The notes under the pieces: generated by a model
Databases searched by the model: none
Told to the model about the DNA's origin: nothing
Seen by the model: the letters and a program-made list of their open reading frames with translations, nothing else
Position numbers and translations under genes: made by a program
Source of the DNA: an uncultured Candidatus Saccharibacteria bacterium
GTDB lineage: Bacteria; Patescibacteriota; Saccharimonadia; Saccharimonadales; UBA10212
Reading direction: 5' to 3'
NCBI GenBank assembly: GCA_965231085.1
Contig: OZ246413.1
Location: forward strand, 270,638 to 334,637
DNA length: 64,000 nt
Shown: positions 3,793 to 63,967 of the stretch, in pieces
Numbering within the stretch: position 1 is the stretch's first letter
Layout: each line of letters opens with the position of its first letter

Positions 3793-5010
3793 TTATTGAG
3801 CCATGCGGTCTTCGACAAAGGTCAAAGCTTCGCCAGTTTTACCGGCTCGCCCAGCTCGCCCAATTCGGTGAATGTAATCCTCGTAAGTCTGAGGCAAGTC
3901 ATAGTTTATTACGTGTGTTATTTCTTTAACGTCAATTCCACGAGCAGCTACGTCGGTTGCTACTAGTATGTTTACATGCCCGGCCTTAAAGTTTTCCAGG
4001 GCGCGCTTGCGCTGGCCTTGGCTTTTACCACCGTGCATGTATTCAACTTTGAATCCCTTGGATTTTAGTTCATTACCTAATCTCTCAACGCCGTACTTAG
4101 TCTTACCAAAGATTAGAACCTTACTGACCTCAGGCTTGGATAGTACTTCCTCTAGTTTGCGCATTTTCATGAATTTGTCGTTGTAGCGTATAACGTCTTG
4201 GTTAACATTTTCACTGGTCTCACCAACCTTAACGTTTATCACAACCGGTTCATGGGCAAACGTATTAATAAGTCTGCTGATTTCATCGCTTAGGGTCGCG
4301 CTAAAAAAGAAGGCTTGGTGTTCAGCTGGGAACTTATCTAGAATAAACCTGACATCGTTAATAAAACCCATGTCTAGCATGCGGTCGACTTCGTCCAGAA
4401 CAACCATATTAAACTGACTCAGGTTTAATGTGCCCTGGTTCATATGGTCCTTAATGCGGCCTGGAGTACCGATAACTAGTCGAACACGACCTTTTAGCTG
4501 AGTCTTTTGTTTACCATCAGGCACGCCACCAATTAGAAGTATCGGCTGCAAGCCACTGTTTTTAGCAAAAATTCTAGCTTGATCTTCAATCTGCATAGCC
4601 AACTCTCTGGTTGGTGCAATTACCAAACCTTGAGTTTCAGGATGACGTAGCAAACTATTTAGTATGGGCAAAATGAAGGCTGCAGTTTTACCGGTTCCGG
4701 TGTTGGCAATACCAACAATACTCTTACCTTGTAGTCCCAGGGCTATAGTTTTGTCCTGGATTTCGGATGGATTGATGTAGCCTTTTTGGGCGACATTACT
4801 CTTTAAAAGGGGGTGCATCGCAAAGTCAGCAAACGAGTTTGTTGCAATGTACTCTGTTTGAACAGCTGTTGGCTTAGCCGCCTTAACAAACATAGCCGGA
4901 TGCATGTTAGAGGCTTTAGCCGGTTTCTTAGACGAAAAAGATCGTCTGTTGCTATAAGATTGGGTGCCTGGGCGTCTTGGCCCACGGCGGTATGATGAAT
5001 TTTGATACAT
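3793..5010 (-). CDS. DEAD-box ATP-dependent RNA helicase
   Basis: Motifs present: ANTGTGKTAAF (motif I), PTRELA, DEVDRML (motif II variant), SAT and HRIGRAGRAG (motif VI). Confidence 0.9.
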   Translation of the reverse strand: MYQNSSYRRGPRRPGTQSYSNRRSFSSKKPAKASNMHPAMFVKAAKPTAVQTEYIATNSFADFAMHPLLKSNVAQKGYINPSEIQDKTIALGLQGKSIVGIANTGTGKTAAFILPILNSLLRHPETQGLVIAPTRELAMQIEDQARIFAKNSGLQPILLIGGVPDGKQKTQLKGRVRLVIGTPGRIKDHMNQGTLNLSQFNMVVLDEVDRMLDMGFINDVRFILDKFPAEHQAFFFSATLSDEISRLINTFAHEPVVINVKVGETSENVNQDVIRYNDKFMKMRKLEEVLSKPEVSKVLIFGKTKYGVERLGNELKSKGFKVEYMHGGKSQGQRKRALENFKAGHVNILVATDVAARGIDVKEITHVINYDLPQTYEDYIHRIGRAGRAGKTGEALTFVEDRMAQ

Positions 5011-17989: not shown

Positions 17990-18064
17990 TGGCTGGGACG
18001 GTAGGATTCGAACCTACGAATGCTGGTACCAAAAACCAGTGCCTTACCACTTGGCGACGTCCCA
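17990..18064 (-). tRNA. tRNA-Gln (anticodon UUG)
   Basis: Cloverleaf read by hand: acceptor tgggacg/cgtccca, anticodon arm ctggt-ttttggt-accag, T-arm gtagg-ttcgaat-cctac, encoded CCA. Confidence 0.85.
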
Positions 18065-31876: not shown

Positions 31877-32125
31877 AGTTTATTCCTTCGATTAGTTTGT
31901 TAATTTAATTTGTTAACGAGCTTCTTGGTCGACAAAGTTATAAAAAATCTCTGCGCCATATTCTAGCCAGAGACATAATTAACAATCTTGATGAATCGTT
32001 ATTACCTTGGTAGCTTTTCTGGGAGTTCCCAGGCGATTAAGCTTGATTCAAGCAGCTACTGTCTTTGGCTAAACTAGCCACAATTGTAACACTTGTTAGG
32101 TTAATCGGCAAGAGTTTATAAGAGG
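31877..32125 (-). promoter_or_regulatory. Possible rplJ (L10) leader
   Basis: A 249-nt untranslated gap upstream of rplJ containing the palindromic hairpin ctgggagttcccag. Assigned by position only. Confidence 0.3.
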
Positions 32126-38997: not shown

Positions 38998-39073
38998 TGG
39001 CAGGGGAGACAGGACTCGAACCTGCGACCCTCGGTTTTGGAGACCGATGCTCTACCAACTGAGCTACTCCCCT
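38998..39073 (-). tRNA. tRNA-Trp (anticodon CCA)
   Basis: Hand-folded: acceptor aggggag/ctcccct, anticodon arm tcggt-ctccaaa-accga, T-loop ttcgagt, encoded CCA. Confidence 0.85.
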
Positions 39074-39550: not shown

Positions 39551-39625
39551 TGGAGCCGTCGACGAGAGTTGAACTCGTGACCCCCTCCTTACCATGGAGG
39601 TGCTCTACCACTGAGCTACGACGGC
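39551..39625 (-). tRNA. tRNA-Thr (anticodon GGU)
   Basis: Acceptor gccgtcg/cgacggc, anticodon arm cctcc-atggtaa-ggagg, T-loop ttcaact, encoded CCA. Confidence 0.85.
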
Positions 39626-41149: not shown

Positions 41150-41235
41150 TGGTGCAGAGGGAGGGATTCGAACCCCCGAAGGCGAATGCCACTTGATTTA
41201 CAGTCAAGCGTGTTTAACCACTTCACTACCTCTGC
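41150..41235 (-). tRNA. tRNA-Tyr (anticodon GUA), long variable arm
   Basis: Acceptor gcagagg/cctctgc, anticodon arm cttga-ctgtaaa-tcaag, 14-nt variable arm, T-loop ttcgaat, encoded CCA. Confidence 0.85.
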
Positions 41236-41717: not shown

Positions 41718-41793
41718 TGGAGCCGACGGAGGGAGTCGAACCCACGACCCGCTGTTTACAAAACAGCCGCTCTGGCCACTGAGCTACGTCGGC
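41718..41793 (-). tRNA. tRNA-Thr (anticodon UGU)
   Basis: Acceptor gccgacg/cgtcggc, anticodon arm gctgt-tttgtaa-acagc, T-loop ttcgact (one U-U mismatch in the T stem), encoded CCA. Confidence 0.8.
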
Positions 41794-59718: not shown

Positions 59719-60352
59719 TCTTTGCTCCTAGCCAGTCGTGCACCATCTCTAGTGCTTTTTTGCTAATAACAATGCAATCTGCATTCATTACATCAAACAC
59801 GTTCAGATACTTAGCTTGTACGGCCTTAACCTTTAGCAGATTGCGAGTAGCTCGTTCAACCAGATTATCTTTGTCAGACACAACTAAAAGCACGTTGCCC
59901 TCGGCCTTGATTTTATTGAGTAAGGTAACCGTTGGCTTAACTTTGCCCTCTGGGCACTCAAATGTCTCAATAACCATAATCCGATTTTCGCTAGAGGCGA
60001 GACTCAATGCCTGCTTCAATGCTTGGCGCTTAGCGCTTACGTTAAGTTTGCGAGTATAGTTCTCGTCGCCAGTTGGGCCAAAGGCAGCTCCACCCTTTCT
60101 CCAAATTGGGTTGCGACTAGAACCGAACCGAGCCCGGCCAGTGCCCTTTTGACGCCATGGCTTAATACCGCCACCGGATACGTCACCCCGAGTCTTAGCT
60201 ACAGCCAAATTTGGTCGTTTATTAGCCAGATATGCAAGATAGGCGTCCTTTAGCAATTGATGATTTTTGACTTCAACACCAAAAACATCCTTGTTTAGCT
60301 TGGCAGGAGTAGTAGCTTTAGCGCCACTCTTCGTATAAGTTGCTACTGACAT
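59711..60352 (-). CDS. rplD: 50S ribosomal protein L4
   Basis: GGGIKPWRQKGTGRARFGSSRNPIWRKGG. Confidence 0.92.
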   Translation of the reverse strand: MSVATYTKSGAKATTPAKLNKDVFGVEVKNHQLLKDAYLAYLANKRPNLAVAKTRGDVSGGGIKPWRQKGTGRARFGSSRNPIWRKGGAAFGPTGDENYTRKLNVSAKRQALKQALSLASSENRIMVIETFECPEGKVKPTVTLLNKIKAEGNVLLVVSDKDNLVERATRNLLKVKAVQAKYLNVFDVMNADCIVISKKALEMVHDWLGAKNE

Positions 60353-60963
60353 TACTTAGCCTCCTTAACTAAAACTGTGCCTTTTCGAGGTCCAGGCACA
60401 GCTCCAACAACACCAATCACATCAAGCTCAGTATCCACTAGCGCCACCTTTAGACGCTTACTGGTAACCTGCACATGGCCCATCTGACCGGACATCTTTT
60501 TACCTGGGAAAATTCGCTGTGGGTATTGTGAGCCAATCGATCCAGGGCGGCGTAAACTTTTGCCACCGTGAGTTTTACGGCCACGCTTAAAATTATGGCG
60601 CTTAATCGTTCCGGCAAAACCCTTGCCTTTAGTAATACCGGTAACATCTACAAGATCGCCAACATTAAAAACGTCGGCGCTTAACTTGTCGCCGACCTTT
60701 GTTTCATCTGTTATTTCACTAACGCGGAATTCACGAACAATCTTTGGAATAATTCCTGCAAGTTTAAATTGACCCTGTGTACTCTTACCAGCCTTCTTAT
60801 TTTCACCGTAACCTAGAGCAACGGCCTGATAGCCATTTACTTCATCGGTTTTAATACTCGTAATAACGTTAGGTGTGGCAGAAAGCAAGGTAATACCAAC
60901 AGCTGAGCCATCATCCGAAATGATGCTCGTCATGCCAATTTTTTTCGTTACAAGTGCTTTCAC
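60352..60963 (-). CDS. rplC: 50S ribosomal protein L3
   Basis: VKALVTKKIGMTSII...GKGFAGTIKRHNF. The GTG at 60961-60963 with AAGGAA 7 nt upstream is preferred over the track start at 61002. Confidence 0.9.
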   Translation of the reverse strand: MKALVTKKIGMTSIISDDGSAVGITLLSATPNVITSIKTDEVNGYQAVALGYGENKKAGKSTQGQFKLAGIIPKIVREFRVSEITDETKVGDKLSADVFNVGDLVDVTGITKGKGFAGTIKRHNFKRGRKTHGGKSLRRPGSIGSQYPQRIFPGKKMSGQMGHVQVTSKRLKVALVDTELDVIGVVGAVPGPRKGTVLVKEAK

Positions 60964-61112
60964 TTCTAATTCCTTACGTTTTAGCTGATAAAGCTGGCCC
61001 ACATTTGTTTGTTGGCTTGCAATCTAAAAGCCTTGGTAATAGCAGTTTCTACCCCTGTTAGCGGTGCAGACTTGCTATCAAGCCAAGACCATAAATTTGC
61101 TTTACTCCGAAC

Positions 61113-61142
61113 AGATTACCACAAAAGCCCAACCCCTGTCAA
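61113..61142 (-). promoter_or_regulatory. Strong sigma70-like promoter restarting rplC and the downstream genes
   Basis: Minus sense: TTGACA (61142-61137), 18-nt spacer ending in TGg, TAATCT (61118-61113). It begins about 20 nt after the RT stop. Confidence 0.55.
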
Positions 61143-61163
61143 TCCGCTGTAAATATTACAAAA

Positions 61164-62240
61164 TTAGAATGGGATGTCGTCGTCAAATGATAGTTGATTT
61201 GGGTGAATAGCTGTTCTCCCAAGCCATCTATTGAAAATAATCCTATCGTTCCAGAAATACTCTTCGTAACTTACTCTGTCTAAGGTCAACTCATCATCGG
61301 GCTCAATTACGTTGTAGCTATACGCGGCTTTATTAGCCATTACTTCTTGCACAAGCTCTAGCAGGATTCGTTCGTCTCTAGAGAGTCTACGTAAAACCGT
61401 TCGACCACTAGATGGTTTGGAATCTGGGTCGATTGTTACGTTTAATAAGCCGTTGATCCCACTAGCGTATTGGTACGGGTCCCCAGCACTTCCATCAAGG
61501 TGGCTAATTTTACGACGTAGCTCATTACGAAAATTTCTTAGAAGTTGATTTCGTAATTGAATCCTACCACCGGGGTTGATTTGTATTCCCGTCACATTTA
61601 TTGGGCCATGCTTGATGTCCTGAACTCTGGTCTTAGATTCATTAATCTCAAACATGTACTGAGCAATTATCTCTCTTATATCTCGACGTTTTCGTTTACC
61701 GATTGAATCTGTAGCTAATTCTCCGGTGTCGGGACTTGAGAACACTAAATCATCCATATACCGGGTATAAATTATCCCAACCCTTCTACAATAGTCTGCT
61801 ATAGCAAGGTCCATATCTAGGCAGTATGCATTGAATAGGCGCGGTGAGCTTGGTCCTCCCATTACCAAACCAGCTCCGTCAGGTGATAAGCAAGACTCGT
61901 TTAATATTTTTAATATTGTTTCGTGGTCAAGCGGCTCGTTAATCGCAAACTGCAACCTGAAAAGTCTATCCGCTAAGACAGGCATATCCACCTGACCATA
62001 CGCTCTGGCTAGATCAATCTGAAAAAAATAACGCGAGCCAGAGTGTCGTAGGGCATTCTCGGCAATATTATTCCCTCTTAGCCCTCCAGTCGCATAATCA
62101 AATTCAATGCCGGTTTTATCAAAGTAATGATTGATGACCTCATGCTCCTCTCGCATCAGGTCATTAGGCGCCCAAACACGCCTGTTACCGGCGTACATTA
62201 AGTGCCACGCGCTAGTCTCACTTGAGTTTGCTTTTGTCAT
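61164..62240 (-). CDS. Retron-type reverse transcriptase
   Basis: NALRH (aa 62-66, NAxxH); FFQIDLARAY (motif A, D76); GLVMGGPSSPRLFNAY (motif B); RYMDDLVFS (YxDD, aa 161-164); INESKT; NVTGIQI (VTG, aa 216-218). There is no maturase/endonuclease domain. Length 358 aa. Confidence 0.8.
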   Translation of the reverse strand: MTKANSSETSAWHLMYAGNRRVWAPNDLMREEHEVINHYFDKTGIEFDYATGGLRGNNIAENALRHSGSRYFFQIDLARAYGQVDMPVLADRLFRLQFAINEPLDHETILKILNESCLSPDGAGLVMGGPSSPRLFNAYCLDMDLAIADYCRRVGIIYTRYMDDLVFSSPDTGELATDSIGKRKRRDIREIIAQYMFEINESKTRVQDIKHGPINVTGIQINPGGRIQLRNQLLRNFRNELRRKISHLDGSAGDPYQYASGINGLLNVTIDPDSKPSSGRTVLRRLSRDERILLELVQEVMANKAAYSYNVIEPDDELTLDRVSYEEYFWNDRIIFNRWLGRTAIHPNQLSFDDDIPF

Positions 62241-62327
62241 AAATATAAATTAGCGATGAAATATCAATTCCCTAAACCCCGAAGGGCAAGAGATGTTTGA
62301 TATTCCACCGCATAGGGGCGCGTCAGG

Positions 62328-62567
62328 GGGGATCTTGGGGACCCCTGGTGTCAGGAGTTGTTTACCCGACGCTCCTCGGCTCACCAGCGCGGTCAGTGCA
62401 CATCCAGTCGAACCCATAGCTGCCTGGAGTCACCGTTCTCTGCGCCTAGATACCTCAGATCACTTGTGTCTTAGCTTTGTATGAGCTAAGCCGAGCCGGA
62501 ACTCCCTATCCCGAAGGATTAGCAGTCCCCGCACTGTTGGTTGATGTTATGCATCCCCAAGATCCCC
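62328..62567 (-). ncRNA. Retron msr-msd-like non-coding RNA candidate, closed by a1/a2 inverted repeats
   Basis: Lies directly upstream of the RT on the same strand. The 14-bp perfect IR ggggatcttgggga (62328-62341) / tccccaagatcccc (62554-62567) encloses about 240 nt. About 63% GC on line 62341-62400. Internal hairpins are present; see the findings. Confidence 0.6.
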
Positions 62568-62625
62568 TCATGCTATACAAGCAGCACCTGCTCATGATGT
62601 TCGAGCAGCTGACCACCTAGCTGTG

Positions 62626-62655
62626 AATATACCACAATATTTAACCCCGGGTCAC
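62626..62655 (-). promoter_or_regulatory. Promoter candidate for the ncRNA-RT unit
   Basis: Minus sense: GTGACC (62655-62650), 18-nt spacer, extended -10 TGgTATATT (62634-62626). Confidence 0.35.
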
Positions 62656-62673
62656 GTTGTTGTCCACGTTATT

Positions 62674-63117
62674 CTAGTAAATTATTTTGTGTGTCTTTGC
62701 GATATCAAGTGCCTTGTCAATCTGCGAGTGAAGCGGCGTTGGCAAATTTGATATATTAAACCAACCAATTTCATCGATTTTGTCCGGTTCACCGATTTTT
62801 ATTTTATCTGGGTCAAGAAGTACGCTATGCAGTAAGGCGACCCAGTGAGTCGGCCGGCCATTGTGCTGGCGATGCGCCTCATAAGCTCCAAGAAAATCTA
62901 TCTTTAGCGGCTTTGTCAGATACTCCTCTGCTATCTCGCGAGTTACTGCCTGTTCCATAGTCTCACCAAATTCGACAGCTCCACCACCAATATCCCACTT
63001 TCCTTGCTCGTCCCTGGCCTTAGCTCCACGTTTTTGTAATAGGATCTTGCCTGAGCCGTCGTGTGCAATAAAACACACTGTGACTCCTATAAAGTTAATT
63101 CCTCGCTGCTTATCCAT
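62674..63117 (-). CDS. Nudix hydrolase
   Basis: Nudix box GGAVEFGETMEQAVTREIAEEY matches Gx5Ex7REUxEE. Confidence 0.85.
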   Translation of the reverse strand: MDKQRGINFIGVTVCFIAHDGSGKILLQKRGAKARDEQGKWDIGGGAVEFGETMEQAVTREIAEEYLTKPLKIDFLGAYEAHRQHNGRPTHWVALLHSVLLDPDKIKIGEPDKIDEIGWFNISNLPTPLHSQIDKALDIAKTHKIIY

Positions 63118-63127
63118 ATACCGCTTT

Positions 63128-63556
63128 TTAACCTAATATACTGTGCAGTTCCACAGACGGAAGCCCGGTTTTATAATCTAGACCTGCATCACGGCAATCA
63201 GCGATTAGTCCGACAAGATCAATAACTAGCTCCTCGTCTATTCTGCCTATGCTAGGCCCATGGGATCTGGCGATGTCCAGCAAGTCATCCTTACAATCAC
63301 GGACTTTAGCTATTTCGGCGTCATATAAATCGGTAGTGGCGCTTCGGTCCGATCGCTCAAATTCAAGTCTTGATATTAAATCTGCAATTGCAGCCTTCAT
63401 AGCAATGACTGCCGGAGATTCTGGGCTTGTCTCAGACACAGCCGGCGAGGCTACGCCTTCGCGACCGGCTAATGGGAACGATTCTGCAAATGCAACTAGA
63501 TCAGACATATCTGTGTAATCTCTACCTTCTTCAACTGGGTGTTCTGGAACCGACAT
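63128..63556 (-). CDS. Acidic hypothetical protein (142 aa)
   Basis: SD AAGGAG lies 8 nt upstream of the ATG. D/E-rich; no motif recognised. Confidence 0.5.
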   Translation of the reverse strand: MSVPEHPVEEGRDYTDMSDLVAFAESFPLAGREGVASPAVSETSPESPAVIAMKAAIADLISRLEFERSDRSATTDLYDAEIAKVRDCKDDLLDIARSHGPSIGRIDEELVIDLVGLIADCRDAGLDYKTGLPSVELHSILG

Positions 63557-63592
63557 AGCGTTAACTCCTTATATAAAAACCATATTAGCACG

Positions 63593-63614
63593 AAAAAACC
63601 GCCGAATGGCGGTT
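63593..63614 (-). terminator. Rho-independent terminator immediately after rpsJ
   Basis: Stem aaccgcc / ggcggtt with loop gaat; the minus sense is followed by U6. Confidence 0.7.
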
Positions 63615-63637
63615 TAATCAACTTTATTGTCCTTAAG

Positions 63638-63967
63638 TTACATCTTTATTTCGGCGTCGCAACCTGCAGGCAGAGATAGGTTCATTAAACTATCAATTGT
63701 CTTAGGAGTTGGATCGGTAATATCAATCAACCTCTTGTGGACTCTCATCTCAAACTGCTCACGACCTTTTTTGTAGACATGCGGGCTTTTGACTACTGTG
63801 AATGTGCTTTTGCGAGTCGGCAGAGGTATAGGACCGGCAATTTTAGCGCCAGTCCTAAGCGCAGTTTCTACAATCTGTTTAGCCGATTGGTCGATAACTT
63901 TGTGATCGTACGCCTTTAGACGGATACGAATGCGCTGCTTTACTTCTGCTTCTTTTACTTCTGCCAT
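63638..63967 (-). CDS. rpsJ: 30S ribosomal protein S10
   Basis: [41 protein letters not shown]. Confidence 0.92.

What the first reader, a model, noticed from the sequence alone, without database searches (positions are those of the whole stretch)
62328..62619. Candidate msr-msd RNA: a 14-bp perfect a1/a2 inverted repeat enclosing ~240 nt with UUCG-capped hairpins
Seen directly in the sequence. ggggatcttgggga (62328-62341) is the exact reverse complement of tccccaagatcccc (62554-62567). In minus (RT) sense the RNA reads a1 GGGGAUCUUGGGGA, then a hairpin GGGACU..AUCC-UUCG-GGAU..AGUUCC. The outer stem of that hairpin needs a G-U pair that exists only in minus sense. Next come a perfect 7-bp hairpin CUUAGCU-cauacaa-AGCUAAG (plus 62465-62485) and an interrupted hairpin CUGGUG..AGGAG-loop-CUCCU..CACCAG (plus 62345-62387) that abuts a2. 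An extended -10 promoter candidate lies about 55 nt upstream of a1. GC is about 63% against a 40-50% background. These features match the retron ncRNA layout: terminal a1/a2 duplex, msr hairpins and an msd stem. The branching G cannot be assigned by eye.
Basis: seen in the sequence. Interest (0 to 1): 0.75.

Follow-up and report, generated by a model that had tools for sequence, protein, structure and literature searches.

The report
Orphan retron-like RNA in Saccharibacteria
The flagged stretch is very probably the structured non-coding RNA of a retron-type reverse transcriptase encoded just downstream, in a little-known lineage from ultrasmall (CPR) bacteria that has no recognisable toxin partner and whose enzyme ends in a copy of the SSB protein docking tail.

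Summary
The 14-bp perfect inverted repeat (62328-62341 / 62554-62567) is real and beyond chance. It lies 87 nt upstream of, and on the same strand as, a 358-aa reverse transcriptase (61164-62240, minus). By sequence, motifs (NAxxH, VTG, YMDD) and predicted fold, that enzyme groups with retron RTs.

Five related loci (RT 38-49% identical) carry a terminal repeat of 12-14 bp in the same place. Their arms differ in sequence but stay fully complementary, and a2 ends 86-105 nt before the RT start. A hairpin, in two loci a canonical terminator, lies between a2 and the RT. Tetraloop counts and folding energies favour the RT-sense strand. Rfam has no match and the region does not code for protein.

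I read it as a retron-type msr-msd RNA. msDNA, the branch G and the internal hairpins remain untested.

The element is cargo in an rpsJ-NUDIX-[variable]-rplC hot spot of Saccharibacteria. NUDIX is a resident gene, and no known effector is present. The RT ends in ...SFDDDIPF, the SSB C-terminal motif. A Parcubacteria relative ends in DDDDDVPF, and 11 of the 150 sequences in the RT set carry a DnaG zinc ribbon.

Verdict: a new variant of a known kind.

The parts
62626..62655 (-). Candidate sigma-70 promoter with an extended -10 (GTGACC-18-TATATT, TG before the -10).
   Evidence: Found by the scan. TGnTAWWAT is also present upstream of a1 in L169 (TGGTATATT), L003 (TGATAATAT) and L004 (TGTTATAAT), read directly. 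Activity is inferred.
62568..62619 (-). About 52-nt 5' leader between the predicted start site and a1. It holds a local hairpin and a 19-nt imperfect tandem duplication.
   Evidence: direct repeat D1 (62567-62585 / 62591-62609, 79% identity) and inverted repeat I4. L004 has a leader of similar length; L169 and L003 have only about 20 nt between the -10 and a1.
62554..62567 (-). a1, the 5' arm of the terminal duplex (GGGGAUCUUGGGGA).
   Evidence: The core YUKGGGRGA is shared with L003, L169, L009 and L175.
62498..62529 (-). Hairpin 1, GGGACU..AUCC-UUCG-GGAU..AGUUCC, a cUUCGg tetraloop with one G-U pair. Candidate msr hairpin.
   Evidence: Pair probability 0.94-0.97. Present in the MFE and centroid folds.
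62470..62490 (-). Hairpin 2, a perfect 7-bp stem CUUAGCU-cauacaa-AGCUAAG.
   Evidence: I7. Pair probability 0.97.
62391..62434 (-). Hairpin 3, an imperfect stem of about 12 bp (GGUGACUCCAGG...CACUGACC).
   Evidence: Present in both the MFE and centroid folds. No comparative support is available.
62342..62390 (-). Segment abutting a2 and candidate start of the reverse-transcribed (msd) part.
Evidence: The msd role is inferred by analogy with retrons (PMC7736814).
62328..62341 (-). a2, the 3' arm of the terminal duplex (UCCCCAAGAUCCCC).
   Evidence: It ends 87 nt before the RT start, against 86-105 nt in L169, L003, L004 and L175 and 90 nt in L087.
62320..62327 (-). CCUGACGC motif immediately 3' of a2.
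   Evidence: Identical in L003. L169 has CUUCGGACG instead.
62253..62311 (-). Hairpin after a2: a 15-bp stem enclosing a cUUCGg-capped inner hairpin, followed by an AU-rich tract and the RT ATG with no Shine-Dalgarno sequence.
   Evidence: I2; -31.4 kcal/mol. A hairpin occupies the same place in L169, L003 and L004. In L175 and L009 it is a canonical intrinsic terminator. No canonical terminator is called in the window.
61164..62240 (-). Retron-class reverse transcriptase, 358 aa. Motifs: D76, NALRH 62-66, YMDD 161-164, VTG 216-218.
   Evidence: Pfam RVT_1 at 2.8e-16. The best PADLOC matches are retron RT models. NCBIfam retron_St85_RT scores 7e-29, below its cutoff. The top PDB sequence and fold hits are all retron RTs. 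Invariant residues are listed.
61167..61403 (-). C-terminal extension of the RT (aa 280-358), absent from all relatives. Its last 8 residues, SFDDDIPF (61167-61190), copy the SSB C-terminal motif.
   Evidence: No relative aligns beyond about aa 280-300. AF2 gives pLDDT below 50 for aa 318-358. Tails are listed. DDDIPF is the conserved SSB-Ct hexapeptide (PMC5872125 abstract).
63128..63556 (-). ORF142, an acidic protein with a disordered N-terminus and a 4-helix bundle. Possible accessory protein; association uncertain.
   Evidence: It has a single homologue among 5.8 billion proteins (P0153, 39% identity), and that homologue lies in L169, which also carries the ncRNA and RT. No Pfam, PADLOC, NCBIfam, PHROG or PDB-fold match.

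Best explanation
Window 62328-62567, read on the minus strand, is the core of a retron-type (msr-msd) non-coding RNA. It belongs to the reverse transcriptase encoded 87 nt downstream (61164-62240, minus).

Proposed steps:
1. An extended -10 promoter (62655-62626) starts a transcript of about 380 nt of non-coding RNA that runs into the RT gene. The promoter sequence is conserved; its activity is inferred.
2. The RNA closes on itself through the 14-bp a1/a2 duplex. This encloses a 212-nt multi-hairpin domain that includes a cUUCGg-capped hairpin and a 7-bp hairpin. The duplex is supported by cross-locus compensation; the inner hairpins are predicted only.
3. A hairpin between a2 and the RT start codon (62311-62253) probably attenuates read-through, so that the RNA outnumbers the RT message. 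Two relatives have a true terminator at this position. This step is inferred.
4. By analogy with characterised retrons, the RT binds the RNA and primes from the 2'-OH of a G next to the inner end of a1 (U-G follows a1). It then copies the segment 5' of a2, from about 62342 inward, into a branched msDNA. This step is inferred and not testable here.
5. No toxin or effector gene accompanies the element, so it is an 'orphan' retron. Its output is more likely coupled to other proteins through the RT's disordered tail ending in the SSB motif DDDIPF, and possibly through ORF142. This step is speculative.

The element is cargo in an rpsJ-NUDIX-[cargo]-rplC variable site of Saccharibacteria.
For: RT class:
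- The best PADLOC hits are retron RT models, 4e-27 and weaker.
- NCBIfam retron_St85_RT scores 7e-29, against Drt2 at 5e-10 and group II at 1e-6.
- The top 14 PDB sequence hits are all retron RTs.
- The top 18 Foldseek hits are retron RTs, from a model with pLDDT 85.7.
- NAxxH, VTG and YMDD are present (sequence). NAXXH and VTG are described as hallmarks in PMC7736814.

RNA:
- The inverted repeat is exact and exceeds every shuffle.
- The four closest loci (window, L169, L003, L004) each have a 14-bp perfect repeat. L175 has 12 bp and L090 has 13 bp.
- The arms of the four closest loci differ at 4-7 of 14 positions yet stay fully complementary.
- a2 ends 86-105 nt before the RT start in five loci.
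- A hairpin or terminator follows a2.
- The extended -10 is conserved.

Strand and coding:
- cUNCGg loops are 12 sense against 0 antisense, and the sense MFE is lower in 8 of 8 loci.
- No protein-level conservation exists across loci.
- No Rfam family matches.
Against: - No msDNA, branch point or transcript data exist.
- Internal hairpins have no comparative support. The interiors are unalignable, and no shared internal motif rises above shuffles.
- The RT fits no type-specific retron model well. Its best score is 93.5 bits, spread over types II-A, XI and XIII. A control RT (P0002) scores 195.6 bits on RT_II-A.
- No third component is recognisable.
- More distant relatives (L007, L008, L093) show no significant perfect repeat.
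- L175 does not show the strand bias.
Confidence: 0.72

Rival explanations
1. It is an RT-associated structured RNA that is not a classical msr-msd. The RT would use it as a scaffold or as a template for a different product, without a 2'-5' branched msDNA. Examples would be DRT2-like repetitive cDNA, or a replication- or repair-linked cDNA.
For: - The RT lies outside all type-specific retron models.
- No long msd stem is predicted.
- No effector is present.
- The family recruits replication-type modules: the SSB-Ct tail twice and a DnaG zinc ribbon in 11 of 150.
- DRT2 and G2L4 RTs appear among the weaker structural matches.
Against: - Retron RTs are clearly the closest class by sequence and fold, at 1e-13 against 1e-6 for Drt2.
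- NAxxH and VTG, linked to initiation and msr recognition (PMC7736814), are conserved.
- The terminal a1/a2 duplex next to the RT is the retron signature.
Confidence: 0.15
2. It is a cis-regulatory 5' leader or attenuator of the RT mRNA. It would control RT expression and would never be reverse transcribed.
For: - The RNA is co-oriented with the RT and sits directly upstream of it.
- The hairpin after a2 lies just before a start codon that has no Shine-Dalgarno sequence.
- Terminator-like elements occupy that place in L175 and L009.
Against: - A closed domain of 170-450 nt with rapidly changing interior but strictly compensated terminal arms is not what a simple attenuator needs.
- In L175 the terminator separates the RNA from an RT that has its own Shine-Dalgarno sequence, so the RNA is a unit of its own.
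- Every characterised RT of this class uses its upstream RNA as template (PMC7736814).
Confidence: 0.08
3. It is a chance inverted repeat, or a decayed remnant of another retroelement such as a group II intron or a DGR.
For: - Both strands fold about equally well by z-score.
- CPR genomes carry many DGRs (own knowledge).
Against: - The shuffle tests exclude chance.
- The repeat recurs with compensation in independent loci.
- The RT ORF is intact with all catalytic residues.
- No group II intron Rfam hit appears even at E<=10.
- The group II RT model scores 28 bits against a cutoff of 300.
- The first DGR RT appears only at fold rank 28.
Confidence: 0.03

Closest known systems
Orphan retrons of the Retron-Eco5 (Ec107) branch (Mestre et al. 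2020, PMC7736814)
   Same: - An ncRNA plus RT cassette with terminal inverted repeats.
- An RT with NAXXH and VTG.
- No specifically associated effector gene.
- Location among chromosomal housekeeping genes rather than in a prophage.
- PADLOC RT_Ec107-like matches at 5.2e-23.
   Different: - The match is no better than to other retron types, so membership of that branch is not shown.
- The host is a CPR bacterium.
- The RT has an 80-aa extension ending in the SSB-Ct motif.
- The ncRNA is longer (240 nt between the outer ends) and multi-branched.
Retron type II-A / St85 (Sen2) family
   Same: It gives the best profile matches: PADLOC RT_II-A at 4e-27 and NCBIfam retron_St85_RT at 7.2e-29. The layout is the same, with the ncRNA upstream of the RT.
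   Different: - The score is 101 bits against a curated cutoff of 235.
- PADLOC found no retron accessory-protein model in either upstream neighbour. ORF142 had no match, and NUDIX had only a weak PDC-S07 match.
- A true II-A-like control RT (P0002) scores 195.6 bits.
Retron-Eco8 (PDB 9p4k, 9lp9)
   Same: It is the best structural match to the predicted RT (Foldseek 4.4e-15, TM 0.64). Eco8 is the retron whose activation involves an SSB protein (abstracts).
   Different: - Eco8 has an OLD-family nuclease effector and senses phage SSB through its msDNA.
- Here there is no effector, and the SSB element is a C-terminal tail motif on the RT itself.
- Sequence identity is only 17-18%.
DRT2 (UG2) RT-ncRNA systems
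   Same: A single RT with a large structured upstream ncRNA and no separate effector gene.
   Different: - RT similarity is much weaker: 5e-10 and 39 bits against a cutoff of 390, and PDB 9e-7.
- From my own knowledge, DRT2 ncRNAs are not closed by an a1/a2 duplex and the RT lacks the retron motifs.

Membership tests
Retron (RT + msr-msd ncRNA) | The reverse transcriptase belongs to the retron clade by sequence and fold. | tested here: met
   All best hits are retron RTs; the next classes (Drt2, group II) are 4-7 orders of magnitude weaker.
Retron (RT + msr-msd ncRNA) | NAXXH motif (region X) and VTG triplet (region Y), with an intact YxDD catalytic site. | tested here: met
   N62-A-L-R-H66, V216-T217-G218, Y161-M-D-D164 and D76 in the translation. 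H66, D76, D163 and D164 are invariant, and G218 is nearly invariant. NAXXH and VTG are defined as hallmarks in PMC7736814.
Retron (RT + msr-msd ncRNA) | The ncRNA lies directly upstream of the RT on the same strand, and its ends pair through inverted repeats a1/a2. | tested here: met
   Searches cover the window. Searches cover L169, L003, L004, L175 and L090, plus borderline L009, L088 and L087, all with compensated arms.
Retron (RT + msr-msd ncRNA) | One to three msr hairpins and one long stable msd stem-loop inside the a1/a2 closure. | tested here: inconclusive
Two hairpins after a1 have p>0.9. Covariation cannot be tested because the interiors do not align.
Retron (RT + msr-msd ncRNA) | A branching G at the inner end of a1, a 2'-5' RNA-DNA link, and msDNA production. 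| not testable with these tools
   A G lies 0-3 nt after a1 in all eight loci listed. That is weak evidence, because G is common.
Retron (RT + msr-msd ncRNA) | A third component: an associated effector protein or an RT-fused effector domain (the tripartite system). | tested here: inconclusive
   No known effector is present. PADLOC finds nothing for ORF142 and only a weak PDC-S07 match for NUDIX. NUDIX is a resident gene that occurs at this site without an RT in L170-L174. ORF142 co-occurs with the RT in 2 of 2 loci. No partner is shared among nine other relatives' loci. Orphan retrons are known.
Retron types I-XIII (Mestre 2020 / PADLOC models) | A strong, type-specific match of the RT to one type's model. 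| tested here: not met
   The best score is 93.5 bits, nearly tied among II-A, XI, XIII and III-A. The relatives P0003-P0012 behave the same way. The control P0002 reaches 195.6 bits on RT_II-A.
Any Rfam RNA family | A covariance-model match at or near the gathering score. | tested here: not met
   (gathering score, whole window). (E<=10, 62150-62750) gives only mir-105 at 15.9 bits against a gathering score of 68, and that hit is in the leader.
DRT2 / UG-Abi RTs | The RT matches the Drt2 or UG models at the curated level. | tested here: not met
   Drt2 scores 39.1 bits against a cutoff of 390, and Drt3a scores 18.7 against 200.
Group II intron | An intron-encoded RT/maturase plus intron RNA domains. 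| tested here: not met
   TIGR04416 scores 28 bits against a cutoff of 300. No intron RNA family appears even at E<=10. At 358 aa the RT is short for an intron-encoded RT/maturase (own knowledge).

The most novel reading that the evidence does not exclude
This would be a lineage of retron-like elements specific to CPR bacteria that does not work as a toxin-antitoxin sensor. Instead, the RT-RNA(-msDNA) particle would plug into the host or phage SSB interaction network or the replisome. The window RT and a Parcubacteria relative end in the SSB docking peptide (DDDIPF, DDDDDVPF). About 7% of the closest RTs carry the DnaG primase zinc ribbon. The elements sit among replication, repair and translation genes without any effector. 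The particle could be an SSB-mimicking decoy or sensor for proteins that bind the SSB tail, or a domesticated priming or repair device.
Probability: 0.2. Interest if true: 0.85.

Novelty: new variant of a known kind. Interest (0 to 1): 0.6.

Why it matters
- Retrons are known as tripartite anti-phage systems and as genome-editing tools. Their presence, form and role in the ultrasmall CPR/Patescibacteria is absent from the literature I could search.
- This locus and its relatives define a divergent retron-like lineage. The RT is at most 49% identical to anything in 1.8 billion cluster representatives. It has its own ncRNA architecture, no effector, and recurrent fusions to replisome-type modules.
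- If the RNA is reverse transcribed, it adds a compact RT-ncRNA pair from a new part of the tree.
- If the SSB-tail link is functional, it would show a new way for a retron to connect to cellular or phage DNA metabolism.
- It also marks rpsJ-NUDIX-[cargo]-rplC as a variable cargo site in Saccharibacteria.

Tried and rejected
- NUDIX as the retron effector: rejected. It has 342 homologues at E<=1e-20, and several are named by their sources as Candidatus Saccharibacteria proteins. It sits right after rpsJ without any RT in L170-L174. It is 76% identical between the window and L169, while the RT is 45% identical.
- ORF142 function: no Pfam, PADLOC, NCBIfam or PHROG hit. The AF2 model is a 4-helix bundle with no PDB fold match at E<0.001.
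- Word-indexed protein search and the single-protein genome scan for the RT found almost nothing. The exhaustive HMMER search and the alignment-based scans were needed.
- MAFFT alignment of the ncRNAs aligns only a1, a2 and their flanks. The k-mer search found no internal motif above shuffles. I therefore built no covariance model and ran no R-scape-type test of the inner helices.
- Hidden protein-coding in the ncRNA region: six-frame fragments from five loci share nothing above 21 bits.
- Strand assignment by folding z-score alone does not discriminate. Tetraloop counts and MFE comparison were used instead.
- L167 and L168 are the same strain, 100% identical, so they give no variation.
- Group II intron, DGR and DRT2 readings were rejected; see the membership rows.
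- Exact look-up of the RT found no contig, and P0004 had no retrievable DNA.

Full report
**Observation**

The inverted repeat is as described: 62328-62341 GGGGATCTTGGGGA and 62554-62567 TCCCCAAGATCCCC, 14 of 14 complementary, with 212 nt between the arms.
- Perfect 14-mers with arms up to 400 nt apart occur only twice in the 64-kb window. Block shuffles give 0.1 on average. The other case is a plain terminator at 855-893.
- In the 600 nt upstream of the neighbouring gene, none of 100 dinucleotide shuffles reaches 14 bp.

For the minus-sense RNA, pair probabilities are 0.94 for a1/a2, 0.94-0.97 for the UUCG-capped hairpin at 62498-62529, and 0.97 for the 7-bp hairpin.

Four details needed correction:
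- The 7-bp hairpin is at 62470-62490.
- GC of a1-a2 is 56.7% against 44.2% for the window.
- The 'interrupted hairpin' at 62345-62387 has about 0 probability as RNA, while CUCCUG/CAGGGG has 0.72.
- Whole-region z-scores do not separate the strands.

**Surroundings**

All genes here are on the minus strand. In order:
- rpsJ, 63638-63967
- ORF142, 63128-63556
- a NUDIX hydrolase, 62674-63117
- the non-coding stretch
- a 358-aa ORF, 61164-62240
- rplC, 60352-61002, and the rest of the S10 operon

The 358-aa ORF is a reverse transcriptase (Pfam RVT_1, 2.8e-16). The evidence puts it in the retron class:
- Its best PADLOC matches are retron RT models: II-A at 4e-27, then XI, XIII and III-A.
- NCBIfam gives retron_St85_RT at 7e-29, against Drt2 at 5e-10 and group II at 1e-6. 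All are below curated cutoffs.
- The 14 best PDB sequence hits are retron RTs, followed by Drt2.
- An AF2 model (pLDDT 85.7) has retron RTs as its 18 best Foldseek matches.
- It carries D76, NALRH (62-66), YMDD (161-164) and VTG (216-218). H66, D76, D163 and D164 are invariant and G218 is nearly invariant among relatives. NAXXH and VTG are the retron RT hallmarks in Mestre et al. 2020 (PMC7736814).

**Relatives**

The word-indexed search found almost nothing. An exhaustive HMMER search found 760 proteins at E<=1e-10, the closest 49% identical.

The most informative is L169, found through the only homologue of ORF142. It has the layout rpsJ end, ORF154, NUDIX, non-coding stretch, RT (316 aa), rplC leader. 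NUDIX is 76% identical to the window's, while the RT is 45% and ORF142 is 39% identical.

Each of the four closest loci has a perfect 14-bp repeat upstream of the RT:

| Locus | a1 |
|---|---|
| window | GGGGATCTTGGGGA |
| L169 | GGGGACTTGGGAGA |
| L003 | GGGGTCTTGGGGAC |
| L004 | GGGGCGAGGGGAAA |

- Each of these repeats exceeds all 100 shuffles.
- The arms differ from one another at 4-7 of 14 ungapped positions, and the partner arm always compensates.
- L175 (Parcubacteria) has 12 bp, GGTTCTGGGAGA / TCTCCCAGAACC.
- L090 has 13 bp (exceeds all 100 shuffles). L009, L088 and L087 have 10-11 bp (p 0.03-0.08).
- L007, L008 and L093 show none, and L006 is cut off by the contig end.
- a2 ends 87, 94, 105, 100 and 86 nt before the RT start in the window, L169, L003, L004 and L175.

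Between a2 and the start codon each of these loci has a hairpin. In L175 and L009 it is a canonical terminator with a U-run. The extended -10 TGnTAWWAT precedes a1 in the four closest loci.

**Strand and coding**

- cUNCGg tetraloop motifs number 12 on the RT-sense strand and 0 on the other, across eight loci.
- The sense MFE is lower in 8 of 8 loci. L175 is an exception.
- Six-frame fragments of the non-coding stretches share no protein similarity across loci.
- Rfam has no match.

**What could not be shown**

- The interiors between a1 and a2 range from 170 to 446 nt, do not align, and share no motif above shuffles. The inner hairpins therefore rest on thermodynamic prediction only.
- No long msd-type stem is predicted.
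- msDNA, the branch G and the transcript ends need experiments.

**Context and partners**

NUDIX is a resident gene. It has 342 homologues at E<=1e-20, several of them named by their sources as Candidatus Saccharibacteria proteins. In L170-L174 it follows rpsJ with other cargo, and no RT, before rplC. The site is therefore rpsJ-NUDIX-[variable cargo]-rplC, and the ncRNA plus RT is cargo.

rplC keeps its own conserved promoter and leader.

Other relatives also sit among housekeeping genes:
- L007 lies between fusA and tuf.
- L006 lies before rplC.
- L175 lies between tgt and uvrBA.
- L088 lies next to HU and RNase Y.

They share no partner gene. ORF142 co-occurs with the RT in both loci where it exists, but its function is unknown. 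Orphan retrons such as the Ec107 branch are already described.

**The RT tail**

- Residues 280-358 have no counterpart in any relative. Residues 318-358 are low-confidence in the model.
- The protein ends ...SFDDDIPF. DDDIPF is the conserved SSB C-terminal hexapeptide that docks many DNA-metabolism proteins, DnaG among them (PMC5872125 abstract).
- P0079, a Parcubacteria RT 38% identical, ends ...LDDDDDVPF.
- Eleven of the 150 sequences in the RT set, and the L009 RT as well, carry a C-terminal DnaG-type CHC2 zinc ribbon.
- By my estimate a random protein would end in DDD[ILV]PF at a frequency of about 1e-7, so two cases in 150 is not chance. This is an inference.

**Conclusion**

This is the ncRNA of a retron-class RT, with a compensated a1/a2 closure on the RT strand.
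- It fails assignment to any of the 13 described retron types.
- It has no effector.
- It belongs to a CPR lineage that I could not find in the literature.

I rate it a new variant of a known kind, with confidence 0.72 for the retron-type mechanism and interest 0.6.

Noticed in passing
window 61167-61190 (RT aa 351-358); L175 5967-5990: The RT ends in SFDDDIPF, the SSB C-terminal docking motif. P0079, an independent Parcubacteria RT 38% identical, ends in DDDDDVPF. The 80-aa extension that carries the tail is unique to the window RT.
   Followed up: partly
L009 4917-6191, and 11 of the 150 sequences in the RT set (P0039, P0046, P0087, P0116, P0120, P0122, P0132, P0148 and others): Retron-class RTs fused at the C-terminus to a DnaG-type CHC2 zinc ribbon only (Pfam PF01807, best 1.7e-33). 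Two literature checks found no retron with this fusion: a retron+CHC2 search and a term search of the UG/Abi paper.
   Followed up: partly
window 61003-63637; L169; L170-L174: In Saccharibacteria, rpsJ and rplC are separated by a resident NUDIX gene plus variable cargo. The cargo is the retron here and in L169, cupin plus M29 peptidase in L172, and two unknown proteins of 212 and 668 aa in L170. This looks like a cargo hot spot inside the ribosomal superoperon.
   Followed up: partly
window 61003-61163 (minus); L169 3431-3610; L172, L170 and L006 upstream of rplC: A strongly conserved TTGACAGGGGT-(17)-TAATCT promoter and an rplC leader of about 100 nt are shared by five loci, with blocks CTTGG...ATAACAGRGGTAGAAAC. 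This may be an unannotated ribosomal-protein leader. Rfam has no hit.
   Followed up: partly
L007 4926-6014; L006 397-1308: Related RTs sit at other junctions of the same str/S10 gene neighbourhood: between fusA and tuf in L007, and just upstream of rplC in L006.
   Followed up: no
L169 1130-1560: A stretch of 59% GC lies between ORF154 and NUDIX in an otherwise roughly 43% GC locus. It has a 115-aa reverse-strand ORF with no Pfam match. The window has no equivalent stretch.
   Followed up: no
window 62567-62609: The 5' flank of a1 is an imperfect tandem duplication: 19 nt, 79% identity, 24 nt apart. This accounts for most of the longer leader in the window compared with L169 and L003.
   Followed up: no
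L040, about 4400-4560: In a Verrucomicrobia retron locus, the ORF ending just upstream of the RT finishes in ...DDELPF, another SSB-tail-like end.
   Followed up: no
window 31933-32086 (minus); five tRNAs at 17993-18064, 39001-39073, 39554-39625, 41153-41235 and 41721-41793 (all minus): Ordinary Rfam hits: the L10 leader at 51.2 bits and five tRNAs.
   Followed up: no
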